Under the pieces are notes generated by a model that worked only from the letters and a program-made list of their open reading frames with translations, ran no database searches and was not told the DNA's origin. The position numbers and the translations under genes were made by a program. A stretch of 64,000 nt of DNA from a virus. This document shows, piece by piece, positions 24,690-32,430 of the stretch (positions within the stretch are counted from its first letter, which is position 1; the number at the start of each line of letters is the position of its first letter). The stretch spans positions 32,001-96,000 of the IMG/VR virus record IMGVR_UViG_3300044736_000016. One strand, written 5' to 3'.

Positions 24690-26313
24690 CTTTGGGACTC
24701 CGTCTTGGTGCGCTTACGGCGCGGCTTGCGGGGTGGTGGCAGATAATCTAACGCGACGTCCAGCGCCACCTTCGCTGCGATGAGGTCATCCCGCGCGAGT
24801 GCTGTCCGTGCGTCGATGGCGGCTCGTGCAGTATCAACCAGCCAATCGCATGCTTCCTTGTCCACCTCATACTCGGAGGAACCGGCCACGAACTCCTCTG
24901 CCACTGCCAGCCGCTCCTCTGCCGTGGTGGCAGAGTCAAAGGTACGCGGGGTGTATTCGACGTCAAGCGCTCCGGCCTCGTCACCCATATCCGAACTCGG
25001 TGCGGGATCGATCATCTGTATCCCCCTATCCTCAGCCAGCGGGCGAGGGTGAGTAGCCACGGACAGCGGCGGGCGGGGTTCGCGCACAAGACGAGTTCCT
25101 CGAAGGGCTCGTCTGGCCCGAGTTCGCGTCGCCGGGATGGGTCCCACGGTTTGCCGTCGTCTGTGCGCACCTCGCCAAGCATGTTGCCTTCAAGGTCATA
25201 CAAGTACTCGGGCTCATCCATGGCAGTGCGACCTCAGCGGAGAGGTATCGCCACAGATCAGCCACGTTGCTGCGCCAGCGTAGATGATGAATCCACCGAT
25301 CACCTGCAAGAGCGGTGAGGAGGAGACCGTCCAGACAACGAGCGTCGACAGGATCGGTGCCAGCACTACCAACAGGAAGCGGAGCCTCTCGGTGTGGTGT
25401 TCTTGCGAGTCGATGAGTAGATCCACGGCTGCGATCCTCTCCTCGATGGTGAAGTCGCGTATTGGTTCGGGATGCTCTGTCTCGCTCACGGCGTGAACCT
25501 CCGTACGCTCTCGCTGGCAGCCTTGCGTCGAGCGTGTGCCCATGCTATCGGAGTACCGTCAGGCAGGTGGCAGGGACGTCCCATCTCGGACCCACAGTGC
25601 GGGCAGGCTACGTCTCTCGGCGGCCCGCGGTAGAGCGGGTTGCGGCACACGTCGTCGGTGGTACTGACCAGCCAGCCGCATCCCTGCCGCCCACAACGCA
25701 CGTAGCAGCCGCAGGAGCCCATACCCTGTGCGCCGCAGGGCTCAGGACGTGCCGGCAGCAGGATGGTCAGCGATCCTGTCGTCGTGGTATCTTGGTCTGG
25801 GCTGCGGTGAGGGTGATGCCCCGGGCGGGACTGACGAGTTGCGCGAAGGGTGGGCGTTCCGATCCGCAGCCCATCAGTCGTGCTCACTCTGGGCCGAGCT
25901 CCGTCAGCGCATCCCACATCTCCCGGCCGGCTGAGCACCATGCCTTGGGCTCCACGTTCCCGCTGTAGAGTAGTGTGGCTTCGGCGGCGGCACACTTCGG
26001 ACACTCAGCGCAGTGTGCCGAGATAGCCTCATAGACGAGTTCGCGAACCATGGTGGTAGGGACGATCTCGCCCTTATTTATCTTGCTCATGGCAGCAACG
26101 CCTTGGCTTCTCTTAGGAGACGCTGTGCCTGAGAGATGATGCGACGTACCTCGGCACGTTCCTTCCTGCCGTGGGTCGACATAGCGCAGGCGTCGATGAG
26201 GAGATCCTTCGCCTCCCACACCTTGTCGTATGCCATGCGCTCTACGGTGACAATCGGCGCGACGGCCACGTCGCAGGGCCTGTATTCGCCCATGTCGGGG
26301 TCTCCGTGTCCTC

Positions 26314-27757: not shown

Positions 27758-28123
27758 CTATTCGCCGTAGCGTGGCAACCCATCACGGCAATCTGCGTCA
27801 GGCGTCGCCAGACTGGATACTGCCCAGGGCGTAGGCGACGGGCTCTGGCTGGGCGGCGCTGAGGGACGTGGCTGCCGCTGTGCGTGGGGTTGGGCGGGGT
27901 GCTGGCCTCCGGGGCGGTACGGGGCGCTCGTAGCACGCTGGCGTGACCGTCCGCCGTTCGGTGCGGGTCGGCTGCTCGAGGATGGCGAACCTGTCCCGCC
28001 TCCGTGTCCTGCCGGCGACTCCGAGCAGGGCGGGGTGCAGGCTCGGGCCAGCTGCGTCGCCGTGGTGGGGATCAGGACGGCAGCGACGGTAGCGAGAGCC
28101 ACCAAGCCGCGACGTGCGTGCAT
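27758..28123 (-). CDS. Secreted Pro/Ser-rich small protein
   Basis: MHARRGLVALATVAAVLIP signal-like N-terminus; GGAGG RBS. Confidence 0.55.
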   Translation of the reverse strand: MHARRGLVALATVAAVLIPTTATQLARACTPPCSESPAGHGGGTGSPSSSSRPAPNGGRSRQRATSAPYRPGGQHPAQPHAQRQPRPSAPPSQSPSPTPWAVSSLATPDADCRDGLPRYGE

Positions 28124-28199
28124 GTCGGTCGCCTCCGTGCGTGGGTGTGACGCACGTATGACGATCCACGGCGCGCGAATCCTGCCCGCGAACTCACGC

Positions 28200-28845
28200 G
28201 GCGCGGCGAAATTGGCACACGTAGGCTTTACGGTGTCCCCTCTACCTCGCGCGTGGTCTTGCTTCGGTTCTCTGGGGTTGGCCCGTGGTCCACAGCCCGT
28301 GCCGTGGTTGTTGCTACGCCCGTCCCCCACCCTGCCATCACCGGATCCAGCAGCGGAGTATCTGTCGCCCCCCCTATATCCCCCACACGGAAGATACAGA
28401 GAGGACGACATGCAGCATCACCGTCACCGTTGCGTGATCACTGCTACCGGGTTCCCTTGACCTTGCGGCCACCGCCTCATTTCACTCAGCGGCTTACCCG
28501 GATCGACGCGCCGCCTGCAACGGCCGTCGGCATGGGCTCGTTCAAGCCAACGTGTTTATGTGGCCCGCGCCTTCCTTACCCTGCATCCCGCATCCCCCGA
28601 GTAGCCGGTGGGCGGACCCTGGCCGGGAACTAGATGGGGCGGCGCTGCTGGGTGTGCGCGTCGTCGTGGCCGTAGCCACGGACCGAGGCTGGGCCTACCG
28701 GGTACCCATGGGGTCTCCGACGCGGTACGATGAGCCCGCGAGGCAGCGGCTTGGACGGTCTCATCTCCGTCCCCTCAGTGCTAGCTGAGGCGCTGGGAGT
28801 ATTGTTACTCACGCAGGCCGCGCCTCGCAACCACCCGCCCCACGA
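28200..28845 (-). ncRNA. Large structured non-coding RNA candidate (~650 nt)
   Basis: No credible ORF. Nested helices, a 22-bp stem (28363-28410) whose six non-Watson-Crick pairs are all G-U on the minus strand, and UACG, UCCG and GCAA tetraloops. Confidence 0.7.
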
Positions 28846-29139
28846 TGCCGTGGTATCTGAATGCCGCTGACCGTTCTACTCCGCGCTAGGTAGCAGAACC
28901 GCAGCCGTCTTGGCCAGCACCGCGGCCCGTCCACGGCTCATCGCAGGCCGAGCACGGCGGATGTGGCGCAGTACCGCTCCCGCATCCCCGACGAACACGC
29001 GGCAGCCCTCCAGCGTCACCACGTACCCACGTGCCCTTATCCCCGCCAGCGTCCTAGCCTGACTGCGGCTCATCGCAGCCGTGGGCGGCCCGCTTCTCTC
29101 CTTGGTCCCCAGTATCCAAGGGATACGGCTGGAGCCAAC

Positions 29140-29472
29140 CTACGGGGCTGCGGCGTCCACGGCTGCGACGGCCTTCGCCAGCAGCTCACGAGTGTGCGTC
29201 CCGGCAGGCGTGCCGTAGGTGAGATCGGCGCGGGCGGCGAGCAGGACCGCCTCTAGGAGTGCCATCCGTTCTGCATCTGGCCATGGTCGGACGTACTCAG
29301 CGAGTCGGTCGTCGTCTAGCCATGCCCACTCAGCAACGAGGTTGATGTCGATCTCATGGTCGTGCATCCACGGCTCATCGATGCCCTTCTCCTCGGGCAG
29401 ACTATGGTCGATCGCCTTGCCGCTGTACGCCGCGCGCACCGCCACCGCATCCCCATCCTTGTACTCGCTCAT
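29140..29472 (-). CDS. Hypothetical protein
   Basis: ATGA-coupled ORF. Confidence 0.55.
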   Translation of the reverse strand: MSEYKDGDAVAVRAAYSGKAIDHSLPEEKGIDEPWMHDHEIDINLVAEWAWLDDDRLAEYVRPWPDAERMALLEAVLLAARADLTYGTPAGTHTRELLAKAVAAVDAAAP

Positions 29473-29669
29473 GGCTGGGGATGGTAGCGCGGATCGATCT
29501 CAGCCTTGCGTCGCCGTAGGTCCATGATTCCGCATGCCTTGGAGCAGAACAGAGCGTCAGAGCGCTTCGGCAGGAACCACACTCCGCAGCGAGGGTTGTG
29601 GCACTGCGTGAGGCCGTCTGGTAGGGCTCGGACGGTGACGCGAGGCCCAGTCTTGCGTGCCGCGGTCAC
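29469..29669 (-). CDS. Small zinc-finger protein (CGNR-like)
   Basis: CHNPRC..FCSKAC. Confidence 0.65.
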   Translation of the reverse strand: MTAARKTGPRVTVRALPDGLTQCHNPRCGVWFLPKRSDALFCSKACGIMDLRRRKAEIDPRYHPQP

Positions 29670-30589
29670 CGGGTGGGCGCAGTGTGCAGGCGGTAGTCGT
29701 GCTCTACACGGCCGATCTGTGCGTCGCCACGGGCATGCTGCGGTACCCAGAACTTGCCCTCGTGCCGCCCGAACAGGAGGCCACGCCCGTACTTGGGACC
29801 GTAGTGGTGGAAGGAGCCTCGGACGCTGGTGAGTGGTACGCCCCCGCCTTGGCCACCTACACCTCCGCGAGTTGATCGGCCAACGGGGAACACGTTGAGC
29901 GTCTTCACGGTCACACCCATAGCGGCCAGTCGTCGCCGCTCAGGGCGAGGACGCTGGGGCTCTACAAGTTCTACATTGCGGCACGCGAGGAAGTTGAACG
30001 TTCCGAGCAGAACGAGAAGCGCCTCGTCCCATGCGTAGTCGTGGTCGTGGATGATGTCGATAGAGCGGATGTCCGCTGGGCTGCCGTCCTCATAAATATC
30101 GATCTGCCATGAGTGCAGCGGTCCTACAGTCGTGGCCAAGCCGCCCTGGCCCCTACCCCCGACCCACATGAAGGCTAAGACGCGCCAAAACACATCGTCT
30201 TCCCTGACGACGTGGACCGGCTGGTTGTGGGGGATCGGCTTTCCAATATCATCCCAGGAATTCCCCAGCAGTTCGTCACGTTGAGTAGAGACGAGGTGGA
30301 GGACGAATACCGTGCCATATTCGTTGACAAAGCACACGGCTGCCTCGCGCCAGGGTTGAGCGATGCACGGGTGGTCCTCGTAGACAGCCACTGGGCGAGC
30401 AGATGTTTTGAGCGATTCGTAGATCGCCGTAGCGTCGACCACGACTGGATCTTCAACTAGCTCAAGCGCTCGCTCCGTCACTTTGGCTCCTGCGGCCTGC
30501 TGCGGCGTGCTCGCTGTGGCCGGGCAGGGGTTGCCTGCGCGGTGCCTGCGGAGATCGCTTATGACCTTAGCGATGGGCTCTGCGGTCAT
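29666..30589 (-). CDS. Conserved phage protein with a C-terminal VRG(H/S)F..Y..W.P.H.RG motif
   Basis: SVRGSFHHYG..GLLFG..FWVPQHARG; start MTAEPIA at 30589. Confidence 0.7.
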   Translation of the reverse strand: MTAEPIAKVISDLRRHRAGNPCPATASTPQQAAGAKVTERALELVEDPVVVDATAIYESLKTSARPVAVYEDHPCIAQPWREAAVCFVNEYGTVFVLHLVSTQRDELLGNSWDDIGKPIPHNQPVHVVREDDVFWRVLAFMWVGGRGQGGLATTVGPLHSWQIDIYEDGSPADIRSIDIIHDHDYAWDEALLVLLGTFNFLACRNVELVEPQRPRPERRRLAAMGVTVKTLNVFPVGRSTRGGVGGQGGGVPLTSVRGSFHHYGPKYGRGLLFGRHEGKFWVPQHARGDAQIGRVEHDYRLHTAPTR

Positions 30590-30609
30590 CGGACAGTACT
30601 CATGCGAGC

Positions 30610-30639
30610 ATGATACCGAAACCGAGTTGAGATCGGCAA
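30610..30639 (-). promoter_or_regulatory. Sigma70-type promoter of the antisense block
   Basis: TTGCCG-N18-TATCAT, 6 nt before ATG 30603. Confidence 0.6.
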
Positions 30640-30690
30640 CATGGCTCGGCATGGTAGCGCCAGCCTCGGCCTGACGCAGCGGGTAGGCGC

Positions 30691-30717
30691 GGGCAAACCC
30701 ACAGGCACGGCGATCCT
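30691..30717 (+). promoter_or_regulatory. Putative late promoter motif
   Basis: GGGCAA-N15-GATCCT, 6 nt before GTG 30724; the same spacing recurs at 39809-39835. Confidence 0.5.
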
Positions 30718-30723
30718 GCGCCC

Positions 30724-32430
30724 GTGGCGACCGATACCAAGACCACCGAGTCCGACGCCCAAGCTGTCGAACATTCGCATCCCAAGGCGGGCGGCGGGAA
30801 GTACACACACTCCCACGCCATCACGGGCACGAAGGCCCACGGGCACGCCGTAGACGCGAAGGACAACGGCTCCACGACCGAACTCCTGCCCACGGTCGCT
30901 GCGATGAGCGAGACCTCGCCCGGGGTGATGGCACTGCGGTTCCCCCAGCAGGCAAGGCTCTCTGAGGGGGCGCCGATCGACTACCTGTGCACTGGGGAGT
31001 GGACGTTCCCCGAGTTGAACCGCGGCAATCCGATCTGTGTGACCCGCGACGATCTCACCGATGTCAAGCGGCTGTGGGACGAGAACGCCTACGGGCAGAA
31101 CCTGCCGATCATCGATGAGAACCACGATCCGAACCGCGCAGTGGGGTGGATCAAGCGCCTCGACTGGCATCCCTCTGACCCCGACAGGCTGGTGGCGGTC
31201 CCTGACTGGAACGAGGGATGCGACAAACTCGTCGCTTCTGGCGCGTACGGGTACACATCACCGCTTCTGCTCCTGAACTGGCGCGACCCAGTGTCCGGCA
31301 CGGTGTATCCCGTCGTCCCCGGCGGCCTCGGCCTGGATCCCAACGACCCCGAGGGCGATACGTCCGGGCTGGCCTTGGCGAACCACCCGAAAATCAAGAA
31401 GCTCAGTGCCAAGTTTGCGGCATCCGAGAGCGGTGATACGCAGGCTGCGCTGATTGCGTTCGGCGAGGCAGGCACGGTGTTCAGCGGCGTTGCGGCAGAC
31501 ACTGCCCGCGCACTGCTGGCTGAGGGTGACGGCGCACCGATCGACTTCGCTGCGGCCGACACCTCTGCGGACATGACCGATCTGCCGCCGTGCAGTTGGG
31601 CGCCGCCCTATGCGGAGTACAACCGCTGTCCGGGCTATACGCGGGTGCTCGCAGATGGTGACGGCGATGCTCCAGGCGATCTGCCCGGATGCTGCCGTCT
31701 GGCGGCGCAGTGCAATGGCTACTCCCCGGTCCCAAACGGGACTGTTCCACCGTATCAGCGCTCCTACTACAGCGAGGGACACAGCATGGCCGACAACCCG
31801 GCCCAGCCGGCCGGAGTGCCGGCCGCCAATCCGTCTCCGGTACCCAACGCGCCGCAGACCGCCCCGCCCGCGGCCCCGCAGCCACCGCCAGCACCACCGC
31901 CCCCTGCTCCCACCCCTGCCGCGCAGCACTCCGCGGACATGGGAGAGATGCAGCGCATGCTCGCTGCGGAGACCCACCAGCGCGAGACGATGCAGACCGA
32001 GGTCGCACGGCTCGGCGAGGAGCTGAGGCGGCGCGATGAGGACGACAAGATCCGCAGTGTGACGGTTCGGCTGTCAGAGCTCGCGAAGCGTTTTCCCCCC
32101 GCCGTCCTGGACAGTCTCGCCGGAGCCGCAAAGAACGGCGTGCGCGACCGCACCCGCCTGCTCAGGCTGAGCGAGCATCCGGTAGGGATCGAAGCGCTCG
32201 AGGCCATCCCGCAGGTGAAGGGTGGCGCGGTGTCGCTGAGCGAGATCGGCACTGGCGCAGAGGCTGACCCGGAGACCTCCTACTCGCGGCTGCGGAAGTT
32301 CGCCGAGGAGCTGCGCGCGGCAGACCCGAAGCTCACCCGCGAGCAGGCGATGCTCAAGGCGAGCGAGGACCACCCTGACCTCGTCGCTGCGTACCGCGCC
32401 GAGAAGTATGTGCCCGGCGCGGCTGGCTGA
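30724..32430 (+). CDS. Prohead protease (Mu gpI-like) with a C-terminal scaffold
   Basis: IDENH..AVGWIKRL..YGYTSP..LALANHP; Pro-rich linker and coiled coil. Confidence 0.85.
   Translation: MATDTKTTESDAQAVEHSHPKAGGGKYTHSHAITGTKAHGHAVDAKDNGSTTELLPTVAAMSETSPGVMALRFPQQARLSEGAPIDYLCTGEWTFPELNRGNPICVTRDDLTDVKRLWDENAYGQNLPIIDENHDPNRAVGWIKRLDWHPSDPDRLVAVPDWNEGCDKLVASGAYGYTSPLLLLNWRDPVSGTVYPVVPGGLGLDPNDPEGDTSGLALANHPKIKKLSAKFAASESGDTQAALIAFGEAGTVFSGVAADTARALLAEGDGAPIDFAAADTSADMTDLPPCSWAPPYAEYNRCPGYTRVLADGDGDAPGDLPGCCRLAAQCNGYSPVPNGTVPPYQRSYYSEGHSMADNPAQPAGVPAANPSPVPNAPQTAPPAAPQPPPAPPPPAPTPAAQHSADMGEMQRMLAAETHQRETMQTEVARLGEELRRRDEDDKIRSVTVRLSELAKRFPPAVLDSLAGAAKNGVRDRTRLLRLSEHPVGIEALEAIPQVKGGAVSLSEIGTGAEADPETSYSRLRKFAEELRAADPKLTREQAMLKASEDHPDLVAAYRAEKYVPGAAG

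What the first reader, a model, noticed from the sequence alone, without database searches (positions are those of the whole stretch)
28200..28845. Large, intricately folded non-coding RNA candidate (~650 nt, minus strand)
Seen: this is the largest gene-free gap in a dense genome. On the minus strand, an 8-bp helix (28835-28842/28635-28642) closes a ~200-nt domain. Inside it, a 12-bp helix (28817-28828/28738-28750) encloses three hairpins (28797-28810, 28773-28790, 28753-28772), and a CGCGUCG/CGACGCG helix encloses a C(UACG)G hairpin (28665-28680). Further elements are GGG(UCCG)CCC (28610-28619), GGCC(GCAA)GGUC (28459-28470) within a CCGGGU/ACCCGG junction, and an uninterrupted 22-bp stem (28363-28410) with six G-U pairs that would be A-C mismatches on the plus strand. 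Stable tetraloops and strand-specific wobbles argue for selection on a single-stranded fold. Known: phages carry large ncRNAs such as GOLLD and ROOL. I do not recognise those, nor intron, RNase P or tmRNA motifs. Inference: a possibly new class of phage RNA, and my best candidate for an undescribed system here.
Basis: partly seen in the sequence, partly recalled or inferred. Interest (0 to 1): 0.85.

Follow-up and report, generated by a model that had tools for sequence, protein, structure and literature searches.

The report
Small conserved phage RNA fold, not 650 nt
A 750-base untranslated gap in an uncultivated 110-kb high-GC phage contains one 117-base four-way-junction RNA fold kept by compensatory mutations and one exceptional 22-bp hairpin, but the rest of the proposed 650-base RNA folds no better than random sequence.

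Summary
Partly confirmed. No Rfam family matches, and the gap 28124-28875 has no coding signal or conserved ORF on either strand.

Only two elements exceed chance.

1. A ~117-nt domain on the minus strand (28722-28838): a 12-bp stem enclosing three hairpins.
- It folds far better than shuffles in this phage (z -3.9) and in its only findable relative (z -3.2).
- Each of its four helices carries one compensatory double substitution.
- No pair is broken, and every indel lies in a hairpin loop (simulation P < 5e-6).

2. The 22-bp stem at 28363-28410.
- It is the longest uninterrupted hairpin in the 110-kb genome.
- It is strongly strand-specific (z -5.8 sense, -1.9 antisense).
- It is absent from the relative.

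All other segments fold like shuffled sequence in both phages. The central ~400 nt cannot be aligned between them, and helices predicted there are mostly broken in the relative. A single 650-nt ornate RNA is therefore not supported.

The domain stays with the conserved downstream gene while its upstream neighbours are replaced. I read it as a new small structured RNA motif, most likely a cis-acting leader element. Its function is untested.

It was found in only two related phages. The scan noted this same stretch once more in another window (e1-5984086), but not on other DNA.

The parts
28722..28838 (-). Domain 1, a conserved four-way-junction RNA. The invariant 5' GGUGGUU can pair with the invariant 3' GGGCUCAUC to extend the stem. 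P1 is 28817-28828 with 28738-28750. The hairpins are 28797-28810, 28773-28790 and 28753-28772.
   Evidence: z -3.9 in the window and -3.2 in L002:8815-8940 on the sense strand. 29 pairs are 100% kept in both phages, with 4 double compensations and 1 A-U to G-U change. Substitution simulation gives P < 5e-6. Indels fall only in hairpin loops. Model R1 finds one copy per genome.
28363..28410 (-). Uninterrupted 22-bp hairpin with 6 G-U pairs, a pyrimidine-rich 5' arm, a purine-rich 3' arm, a GUGU loop and no U tract after it.
   Evidence: Longest hairpin in the 109,768-bp genome; the next longest is 15 bp. Sense strand -36.5 kcal/mol, z -5.8; antisense -16.2, z -1.9. No counterpart in L002.
28411..28721 (-). 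Untranslated spacer that is not conserved and folds no better than shuffles.
   Evidence: z -0.5 to +0.6. No collinear anchors to L002. 13 of 34 predicted pairs just 3' of domain 1 are broken in L002. Sense strand is G-rich, 37% G against 29% C.
28191..28362 (-). Patchily conserved sequence, such as GGCACGGGCUG and CACGCGCG, without a conserved fold.
   Evidence: Anchors. 19 of 41 pairs predicted for the window (cut at 28168-28310) are broken in L002, with none compensated. z +0.3.
28124..28190 (-). Highly conserved untranslated leader and GGAGG ribosome-binding site of the downstream gene. A small hairpin (CGUGCG/CGCACG) lies next to the site.
   Evidence: Exact shared blocks of 9, 17 and 28 nt with L002. 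The hairpin does not clearly exceed shuffles: z +0.4 and -1.1, -1.9 and -2.1 with other cut points.
27758..28123 (-). Downstream gene for a 121-aa protein with an N-terminal hydrophobic signal-like segment and a low-complexity Pro/Ser/Ala tail. It is conserved together with domain 1.
   Evidence: Translation. About 89% identical to L002 at protein level, though a second reading frame matches as well because the DNA is about 90% identical. No Pfam or PHROG family.
28876..29073 (-). Upstream 65-aa ORF, which is not linked to the RNA.
   Evidence: Absent from L002. About 1.07 kb of other DNA lies there instead, including an antisense HNH endonuclease gene at L002:7887-8573.

Best explanation
The gap is an untranslated, G-rich stretch of the leftward (minus-strand) operon of an uncultivated 110-kb phage with terminal repeats, probably infecting Actinomycetota.

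Shown:
- It contains one conserved RNA structure, a ~117-nt four-way junction at 28722-28838.
- A 12-bp stem closes the junction. An invariant wobble-rich pairing, GGUGGUU with GGGCUCAUC, can extend it.
- Stems co-vary, junction strands are conserved, and loops vary in sequence and length.
- The 22-bp hairpin is a separate element unique to this genome.
- The remainder has no fold beyond chance in either phage and none shared between them.

Inferred:
- The domain stays with the conserved downstream gene block while everything upstream of it has been replaced.
- In the relative it sits behind an antisense gene, where a new transcript would have to begin.
- I therefore read it as a cis-acting element near the 5' end of a long leader.
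- Its conserved junction would bind a protein or small ligand and set the stability, read-through or translation of the downstream genes.
- The 22-bp stem would be an RNase III-type processing site or a terminator without a U tract.
For: Non-coding:
- Codon-position GC is flat across the gap.
- Six-frame comparison with the relative finds similarity only where the DNA itself is conserved, and that alignment contains a stop and gaps.

Structure under selection:
- 25 substitutions in 115 aligned columns. Nine fall in paired columns; none breaks a pair and 4 pairs are doubly compensated.
- 0 of 200,000 simulations reached both features.
- Sliding the 3' partners gives 36-52% pairing and no compensation.
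- Sense-strand z is -3.9 and -3.2.

Strand:
- Flanking genes are all on the minus strand.
- The sense strand folds better than the antisense in both phages.
- The stem extension and the 22-bp stem depend on G-U pairs.

Linkage:
- The downstream leader and gene are 85-90% identical to L002.
- The upstream 250 nt are replaced by about 1.07 kb including an antisense HNH gene.

Limit of the fold.
Against: - Only two sequences exist, so covariation rests on one pairwise comparison.
- No transcript data, promoter or terminator was identified.
- The domain lies ~600 nt from the next start codon with no recognisable expression platform. That is unusual for a riboswitch-type leader.
- A simple 5' stabiliser would not need a conserved four-way junction.
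- The core helices are almost purely Watson-Crick: one G-U in 58 cells. The core alone does not fix the strand or exclude a DNA-level structure.
- Segment z-scores near 0 cannot exclude long-range helices in the rest of the gap.
Confidence: 0.42

Rival explanations
1. Domain 1, perhaps with the next ~80 nt, is a stand-alone stable small RNA. It would be cut from the operon transcript or made from its own promoter. It would act in trans as a protein-binding scaffold, a decoy or a mimic of a host RNA.
For: It is a compact domain with paired ends, conserved junction nucleotides and variable loops. It is an island of conservation between non-homologous DNA on both sides. There is one copy per genome.
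Against: No promoter or terminator is recognisable around it. Its linkage to the downstream genes is equally well explained by cis action. The complementarity of its GGCUCAUCG to three upstream CGAUGAGCC start regions is not kept in the relative.
Confidence: 0.25
2. One reading: the whole ~650-750 nt is one large, ornate non-coding RNA of a new class. Domain 1 would be its conserved core and the periphery would evolve fast.
For: - The whole gap folds better than shuffles on the minus strand only.
- Both phages keep ~750 nt untranslated with the same G>C bias.
- The full-length MFE pairs the 5' end with the region just after the 22-bp stem.
Against: - By my estimate from the fold energies, the excess stability comes mostly from two local elements.
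- The equivalent stretch in L002 gives z -1.4 sense against -0.8 antisense.
- The middle 400 nt are unalignable.
- Predicted helices outside domain 1 are mostly broken in the relative.
- The 22-bp stem and the 8-bp closing helix are absent from L002 (alignments).
Confidence: 0.12
3. The conserved hairpin cluster works at the DNA level. It could be a single-strand initiation or origin signal, or the recognition region of the neighbouring homing endonuclease, rather than an RNA.
For: - Compensatory changes also preserve DNA hairpins, and the core is nearly all Watson-Crick.
- An HNH endonuclease gene is inserted right beside it in the relative.
- The antisense strand of domain 1 also folds better than shuffles, z -2.9 and -1.9.
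Against: - The sense strand is consistently the more stable one.
- The invariant stem extension needs three or four G-U pairs.
- There are no iterons, AT-rich stretch or repeats.
- A nuclease target needs sequence conservation, not stem covariation.
Confidence: 0.08
4. There is no function. The region would be decaying or mosaic junk DNA whose helices are what 65-70% GC sequence gives by chance.
For: Most of the gap behaves this way. High-GC sequence folds strongly everywhere.
Against: The substitution pattern of domain 1 gives P < 5e-6. The 22-bp stem is the longest hairpin in the genome; I estimate roughly a 1e-3 chance of one arising at random.
Confidence: 0.04

Closest known systems
GOLLD and ROOL large ornate RNAs (Rfam; cryo-EM work in PMC12286853, abstract only read)
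   Same: Non-coding, phage-borne and structured, with no known function when first described.
   Different: No match to any Rfam model even at E<=10. The conserved fold here is ~117 nt rather than the much larger size I recall for those RNAs. There are no tRNA genes nearby, and the rest of the locus has no fold shared with the relative.
Riboswitch aptamers built on a P1-closed four-way junction, such as SAM-I
   Same: A closing stem, three hairpins, conserved junction strands and variable loops. The conserved 3' strand has an alternative downstream partner, GGGCU with GGYCC.
   Different: No Rfam hit. It lies ~600 nt from the next start codon, has no terminator or RBS-sequestering platform next to it, and has no metabolic gene context.
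put RNAs of phage HK022 (cis-acting antiterminator RNAs in early operons; from my own knowledge)
   Same: A sense-strand structured RNA embedded in a phage operon. In this genome it lies upstream of a strong hairpin and of conserved downstream genes.
   Different: put is about 70 nt with two stem-loops. There is no sequence or architectural similarity, and antitermination was not tested.
RNase III processing hairpins between genes of T7 early mRNA (from my own knowledge)
   Same: The 22-bp stem offers about two turns of double-stranded RNA in an intergenic part of a polycistronic phage transcript.
   Different: The T7 sites have internal loops, whereas this stem is perfect. It has no counterpart in the relative, and cleavage was not tested.

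Membership tests
Any Rfam 15 family, including GOLLD, ROOL, HEARO, group I and II introns, RNase P, tmRNA, 6S and riboswitches | Covariance-model score at or near the family's gathering threshold | tested here: not met
   No match in the whole window at gathering score. None at E<=10 in 28000-29200. In the relative's locus there were only chance-level hits, such as mir-943 at 21 bits against a threshold of 95.
tRNA, tmRNA or tRNA-like cloverleaf | ARAGORN-detectable cloverleaf with canonical arm sizes | tested here: not met
   No tRNA or tmRNA gene in the window. The arms are 5-6 bp with 4-8-nt loops closed by a 12-bp stem.
Retron non-coding RNA (msr-msd) | An adjacent reverse transcriptase gene | tested here: not met
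   PF00078 finds nothing in the 109,768-bp genome, while the control genomes give matches.
Protein-coding gene | Codon-position GC periodicity and an ORF conserved in relatives | tested here: not met
   Codon-position GC is flat. The only cross-genome protein similarity tracks DNA identity and contains a stop and gaps. Indels of 1, 1 and 2 nt lie inside domain 1, each in a hairpin loop.
Structured RNA under selection (generic criterion) | Compensatory base changes that preserve predicted helices in homologues | tested here: met
   Met for domain 1 only: 4 double compensations, 1 wobble change and 0 broken pairs among 29. Outside it, 19 of 41 and 13 of 34 pairs are broken.
Large ornate RNA (over 400 nt with a multi-domain conserved fold) | Conserved secondary structure across the full length in homologues | tested here: not met
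   The middle ~400 nt cannot be aligned. Segment z-scores are near 0 in both phages. This rests on only one relative.

The most novel reading that the evidence does not exclude
Domain 1 is the ligand- or protein-binding core of a previously undescribed class of phage regulatory RNA. It would be a junction-centred aptamer, or possibly a ribozyme, that switches between the invariant GGUGGUU/GGGCUCAUC stem extension and an alternative downstream pairing. This would control a long leader in a deeply novel lineage of large actinobacterial phages. A weaker version is that the whole ~750-nt locus is one RNA with a fast-evolving periphery.
Probability: 0.25. Interest if true: 0.6.

Novelty: new member of a known kind. 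Interest (0 to 1): 0.4.

Why it matters
- Orphan structured RNA motifs in phages are where several new riboswitch, ribozyme and RNA-assembly classes were first seen.
- This one has unusually clean pairwise covariation, a defined 117-nt construct suitable for probing, and a clear strand.
- It lies in a phage lineage whose capsid protein is only 38% identical to any deposited phage.
- Its value is limited. It is known from two genomes of an uncultivated phage, and its function is unknown.
- The more exciting claim, a GOLLD- or ROOL-sized RNA, does not hold.
- The result also shows that in 65-70% GC DNA a list of hand-found helices and tetraloops is mostly background. Shuffle controls and a relative are needed to pick out the real part.

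Tried and rejected
Homologue hunt. It found only IMGVR_UViG_3300044734_000006 (L002).
- blastn of the region against deposited phages: no match.
- Protein-anchored loci from the 380-aa neighbour, the protease and the capsid.
- A 30-sequence alignment of the neighbour family in viral contigs and in genomes.
- Exact and gapped DNA patterns in viral contigs, metagenome contigs (one chance hit inside a coding repeat) and genome contigs.
- All fetched loci filtered with model R1, including one run with filters off.
- R1 over the 103-kb distant relative G002.
- R1 over 151 Actinomycetota genomes: one 25-bit hit inside a 525-aa ORF with several mismatched pairs, taken as chance.

The contigs of the two other closest neighbour-protein relatives, P0005 (73,935 bp, JGI) and P0006 (90,459 bp, Logan), could not be fetched.
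- A genome-wide 300-nt fold scan timed out.
- The 200-nt version cuts through the domains and shows no outlier at the gap.

Ideas rejected:
- A conserved plus-strand ORF at 28151-28630. The similarity is confined to DNA-conserved bases and includes a stop.
- Plus-strand terminator-like hits at 28774-28797. These are the antisense of hairpin 2 plus the loop of hairpin 1. By my reading of the alignment the T-run is not kept in L002, and no plus-strand gene lies upstream.
- An RBS-sequestering hairpin as a significant structure: z +0.4 and -1.1.
- Retron.
- Antisense pairing of GGCUCAUCG to the upstream CGAUGAGCC start regions. It is not conserved, and the 8-mer is common in coding DNA.
- Long-range pairing of GGUGGUU with AACCAC or ACCACC. 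By my own inspection and estimate, this is within chance and lies at non-equivalent positions in the two phages.

Full report
CONTEXT
The window is bases 32001-96000 of a 109,768-bp IMG/VR virus record with direct terminal repeats and about 65% GC. Its major capsid protein is at most 38% identical to any deposited phage; the best match is Microbacterium phage ValentiniPuff. Relatives of the neighbouring 300-aa protein lie on contigs of an Actinomycetota MAG. All ORFs flanking the finding are on the minus strand, and the structural genes start on the plus strand at about 30.7 kb.

The gap runs from the 65-aa ORF at 28876-29073 to the ATG at 28123 and is 752 nt long. It shows no codon-position GC periodicity, unlike the genes on either side.

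CHECK OF THE OBSERVATION
The 22-bp stem is uninterrupted and has six G-U pairs.
- The 746-nt gap has MFE -356.3 kcal/mol on the minus strand (z -3.0) and -323.6 on the plus strand (z -0.4).
- The 216-nt stretch 28630-28845 gives z -3.6 on the minus strand and -2.4 on the plus strand.
- Rfam 15 gives nothing at gathering score for the window, and nothing at E<=10 for 28000-29200.
- ARAGORN finds no tRNA or tmRNA.

WHERE THE SIGNAL LIES
I cut the gap into seven segments and gave each 100 dinucleotide shuffles.

| Segment | z, sense | z, antisense |
|---|---|---|
| 28722-28845 | -3.9 | -2.9 |
| 28330-28430 | -3.45 | -0.9 |
| 28124-28210 | -1.9 | not notable |
| 28630-28740 | -0.5 | not notable |
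| 28500-28640 | +0.6 | not notable |
| 28420-28520 | +0.6 | not notable |
| 28200-28335 | +0.3 | not notable |

- Cut out on its own, the 22-bp stem gives z -5.8 on the sense strand against -1.9 on the antisense strand.
- By my estimate from the fold energies, domain 1 and the 22-bp stem together roughly cover the 24 kcal/mol excess of the whole gap.
- Background check: 45 random 216-nt pieces of this genome have mean z 0.05 and sd 1.28, and one reached z <= -3.5.
- The C(UACG)G, GGG(UCCG)CCC and GCAA-junction hairpins are therefore what 65-70% GC sequence gives by chance.

THE ONLY RELATIVE
Searches anchored on proteins and on DNA patterns found one related phage carrying the locus: IMGVR_UViG_3300044734_000006 (79 kb, locus L002). 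Its capsid is 100% and its protease 93% identical to the window's.

Collinear comparison gives four zones:
- The window's 250 nt upstream of the RNA, including the 65-aa ORF, are replaced in L002 by about 1.07 kb. That insert includes an antisense HNH endonuclease gene at L002:7887-8573.
- Window 28724-28835 matches L002:8824-8935 at 78% identity.
- About 400 nt (28310-28720) have no collinear anchors.
- 28118-28303 is patchily to highly conserved and runs into the downstream gene, which is about 89% identical at protein level.

Six-frame protein comparison of the two gaps finds similarity only where the DNA is conserved. The best case, a plus-strand frame at 28151-28630, shrinks to 41 residues under default statistics, and its longer alignment contains a stop and 21% gaps.

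DOMAIN 1 IS UNDER SELECTION FOR ITS FOLD
I took the helices from the window sequence alone: a 12-bp P1 with one bulge and three hairpins. I then read them on the two-sequence alignment.
- All 29 pairs form in both phages.
- Each helix has one doubly compensated pair: P1 G-C to A-U, hairpin 1 U-A to C-G, hairpin 2 A-U to G-C, hairpin 3 G-C to A-U. There is also one A-U to G-U change.
- Sliding the 3' partners by 1-3 columns gives 36-52% pairing and no compensation.
- The tool's own shuffle control cannot go below 38/500 with only two sequences.
- I therefore simulated the observed 25 substitutions (14 transitions, 11 transversions) at random over the 115 aligned columns.
- No broken pair occurred in 3e-5 of runs. 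No broken pair together with at least 4 compensations occurred in 0 of 200,000 runs.
- Given nine hits in paired columns, at least 4 compensations occurred in 5e-6 of runs.
- The indels of 1, 1 and 2 nt each lie in a hairpin loop. Loops differ in sequence and length, while the junction strands CC(U/A)GCGUGAG and CUCCCA are conserved.
- The flanking strands GGUGGUU and GGGCUCAUCGUACC are invariant.
- Folded alone, the 117-nt piece pairs GGUGGUU with GGGCUCAUC. This adds G-C, U-A and three or four G-U pairs to P1 in both phages.
- That pairing would be lost on the antisense strand. It also competes with a downstream partner, GGGCU with GGCCC in the window and GGUCC in L002.
- L002's domain gives z -3.2 on the sense strand.
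- Covariance model R1 finds exactly one copy in each of the two genomes.

NO SHARED FOLD OUTSIDE DOMAIN 1
The same read-across test was applied to the window's MFE helices.
- Window 28168-28310: 19 of 41 pairs broken, none compensated.
- The stretch just 3' of domain 1: 13 of 34 pairs broken.
- The reverse test, L002's helices read on the window, is equally poor.
- L002's whole locus folds with z -1.4 on the sense strand against -0.8 on the antisense strand.

THE 22-BP STEM
It is the longest uninterrupted hairpin in the entire genome; the next longest is 15 bp. I estimate roughly a 1e-3 chance of one arising at random. L002 has nothing longer than 8 bp in its locus. The stem has no U tract after it. 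It is real and strand-specific, but it is an element private to this genome.

REACH OF THE FAMILY
R1 found nothing significant in any of these:
- the 103-kb distant relative G002;
- ten viral loci and two MAG loci carrying the neighbour-protein family, including one run with filters off;
- about 130 loci returned by pattern scans of genome and viral contigs;
- the single metagenome hit, which lies in a low-GC coding repeat;
- 151 sampled Actinomycetota genomes, where the one 25-bit hit lies inside a 525-aa ORF with mismatched pairs.

Two further close relatives of the neighbour protein, P0005 and P0006, could not be examined. No reverse transcriptase is encoded in the genome.

INTERPRETATION
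Shown:
- an untranslated minus-strand stretch;
- one ~117-nt four-way junction kept by compensatory change;
- one exceptional strand-specific hairpin;
- no known family;
- linkage of the domain to the downstream genes and not to the upstream ones.

Inferred:
- The domain is an RNA, because the wobble pairs favour the sense strand and the genes share that orientation.
- It acts in cis near the 5' end of a long leader. In L002 an antisense gene lies directly upstream, so a new transcript probably starts within about 250 nt of the domain.
- The conserved junction with variable loops points to a binding site for a protein or ligand.
- The competing pairings of GGGCUCAUC allow a switch, but nothing tests this.
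- Both phages keep about 750 nt untranslated with G clearly above C on the sense strand (35-37% against 29-31%). Flanking genes have C at or above G.
- That bias would disfavour Rho loading. This is my inference only.

Rivals:
- a trans-acting small RNA;
- a DNA-level hairpin signal;
- no function.

The last is excluded for the two elements but describes most of the gap.

VERDICT
This is a real and apparently new small structured RNA motif, together with a notable hairpin. The proposed ~650-nt ornate RNA is not supported. Novelty is modest: an orphan motif seen in two related genomes. Interest is 0.4.

Noticed in passing
L002:7887-8573 (minus strand of the locus, antisense to the operon): A 228-aa HNH endonuclease gene (PF01844, E 7e-9) lies within the ~1.07-kb insert 5' of domain 1 in the relative; its start codon is about 250 nt from the domain. 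The window has a 65-aa ORF there instead. It looks like a free-standing homing endonuclease at a mosaic boundary.
   Followed up: partly
window 29666-30808 (-): The neighbouring protein is about 300 aa (called as 307 aa). It belongs to a large family of phage and metagenome proteins: 279 hits, many at 45-58% identity, with 39 invariant residues including a YEDHPC block. It has no Pfam domain and only PHROG 20769 of unknown function. One member, P0008, carries an intein domain (PF14890).
   Followed up: partly
window 28935-28943, 29067-29075 and 29372-29380 (minus strand): CGAUGAGCCG occurs three times within 450 nt upstream of the RNA. Two copies are at an AUG of the 65-aa ORF, which has an internal MSR repeat. 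The motif is the exact complement of the RNA's invariant GGCUCAUCG. The relative lacks these sites, and the 8-mer is common in coding DNA, so this is probably coincidence.
   Followed up: yes
window 28124-28875 and L002:8821-9594: Both untranslated gaps are G-rich on the sense strand (35-37% G, 29-31% C, 14-15% U), including the unalignable middle. Flanking genes have C at or above G.
   Followed up: partly
genome 20893-21108, plus strand (outside the window, at window coordinate -11107): A randomly sampled 216-nt segment folds with z -3.7, as extreme as domain 1. A 13-bp hairpin lies at genome 20988-21020 on the minus strand.
   Followed up: no
L002:9262-9285: Two G7 runs separated by CGUU fit a canonical G-quadruplex motif (G3-N1-G3-N4-G3-N1-G3). 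They lie at the position that shares the 9-mer GGGGGGGCG with the 3' arm of the window's 22-bp stem.
   Followed up: no
window 29469-29669 (-) and 25486-26004 (-): A 66-aa ORF gives a weak match to the NinG/Rap junction endonuclease family (phrog_171, E 7e-6). A 172-aa ORF has a C-terminal phage zinc-finger DNA-binding domain (PF24623).
   Followed up: no
window 27758-28169 (-): Codon-position GC favours the frame of ORF 27798-28169 (GTG start) over the ATG-started frame 27758-28123. The latter has the good ribosome-binding site and a signal-peptide-like N-terminus. Low-complexity Pro/Ser/Ala content may distort the signal, so the true frame is unsettled.
   Followed up: partly
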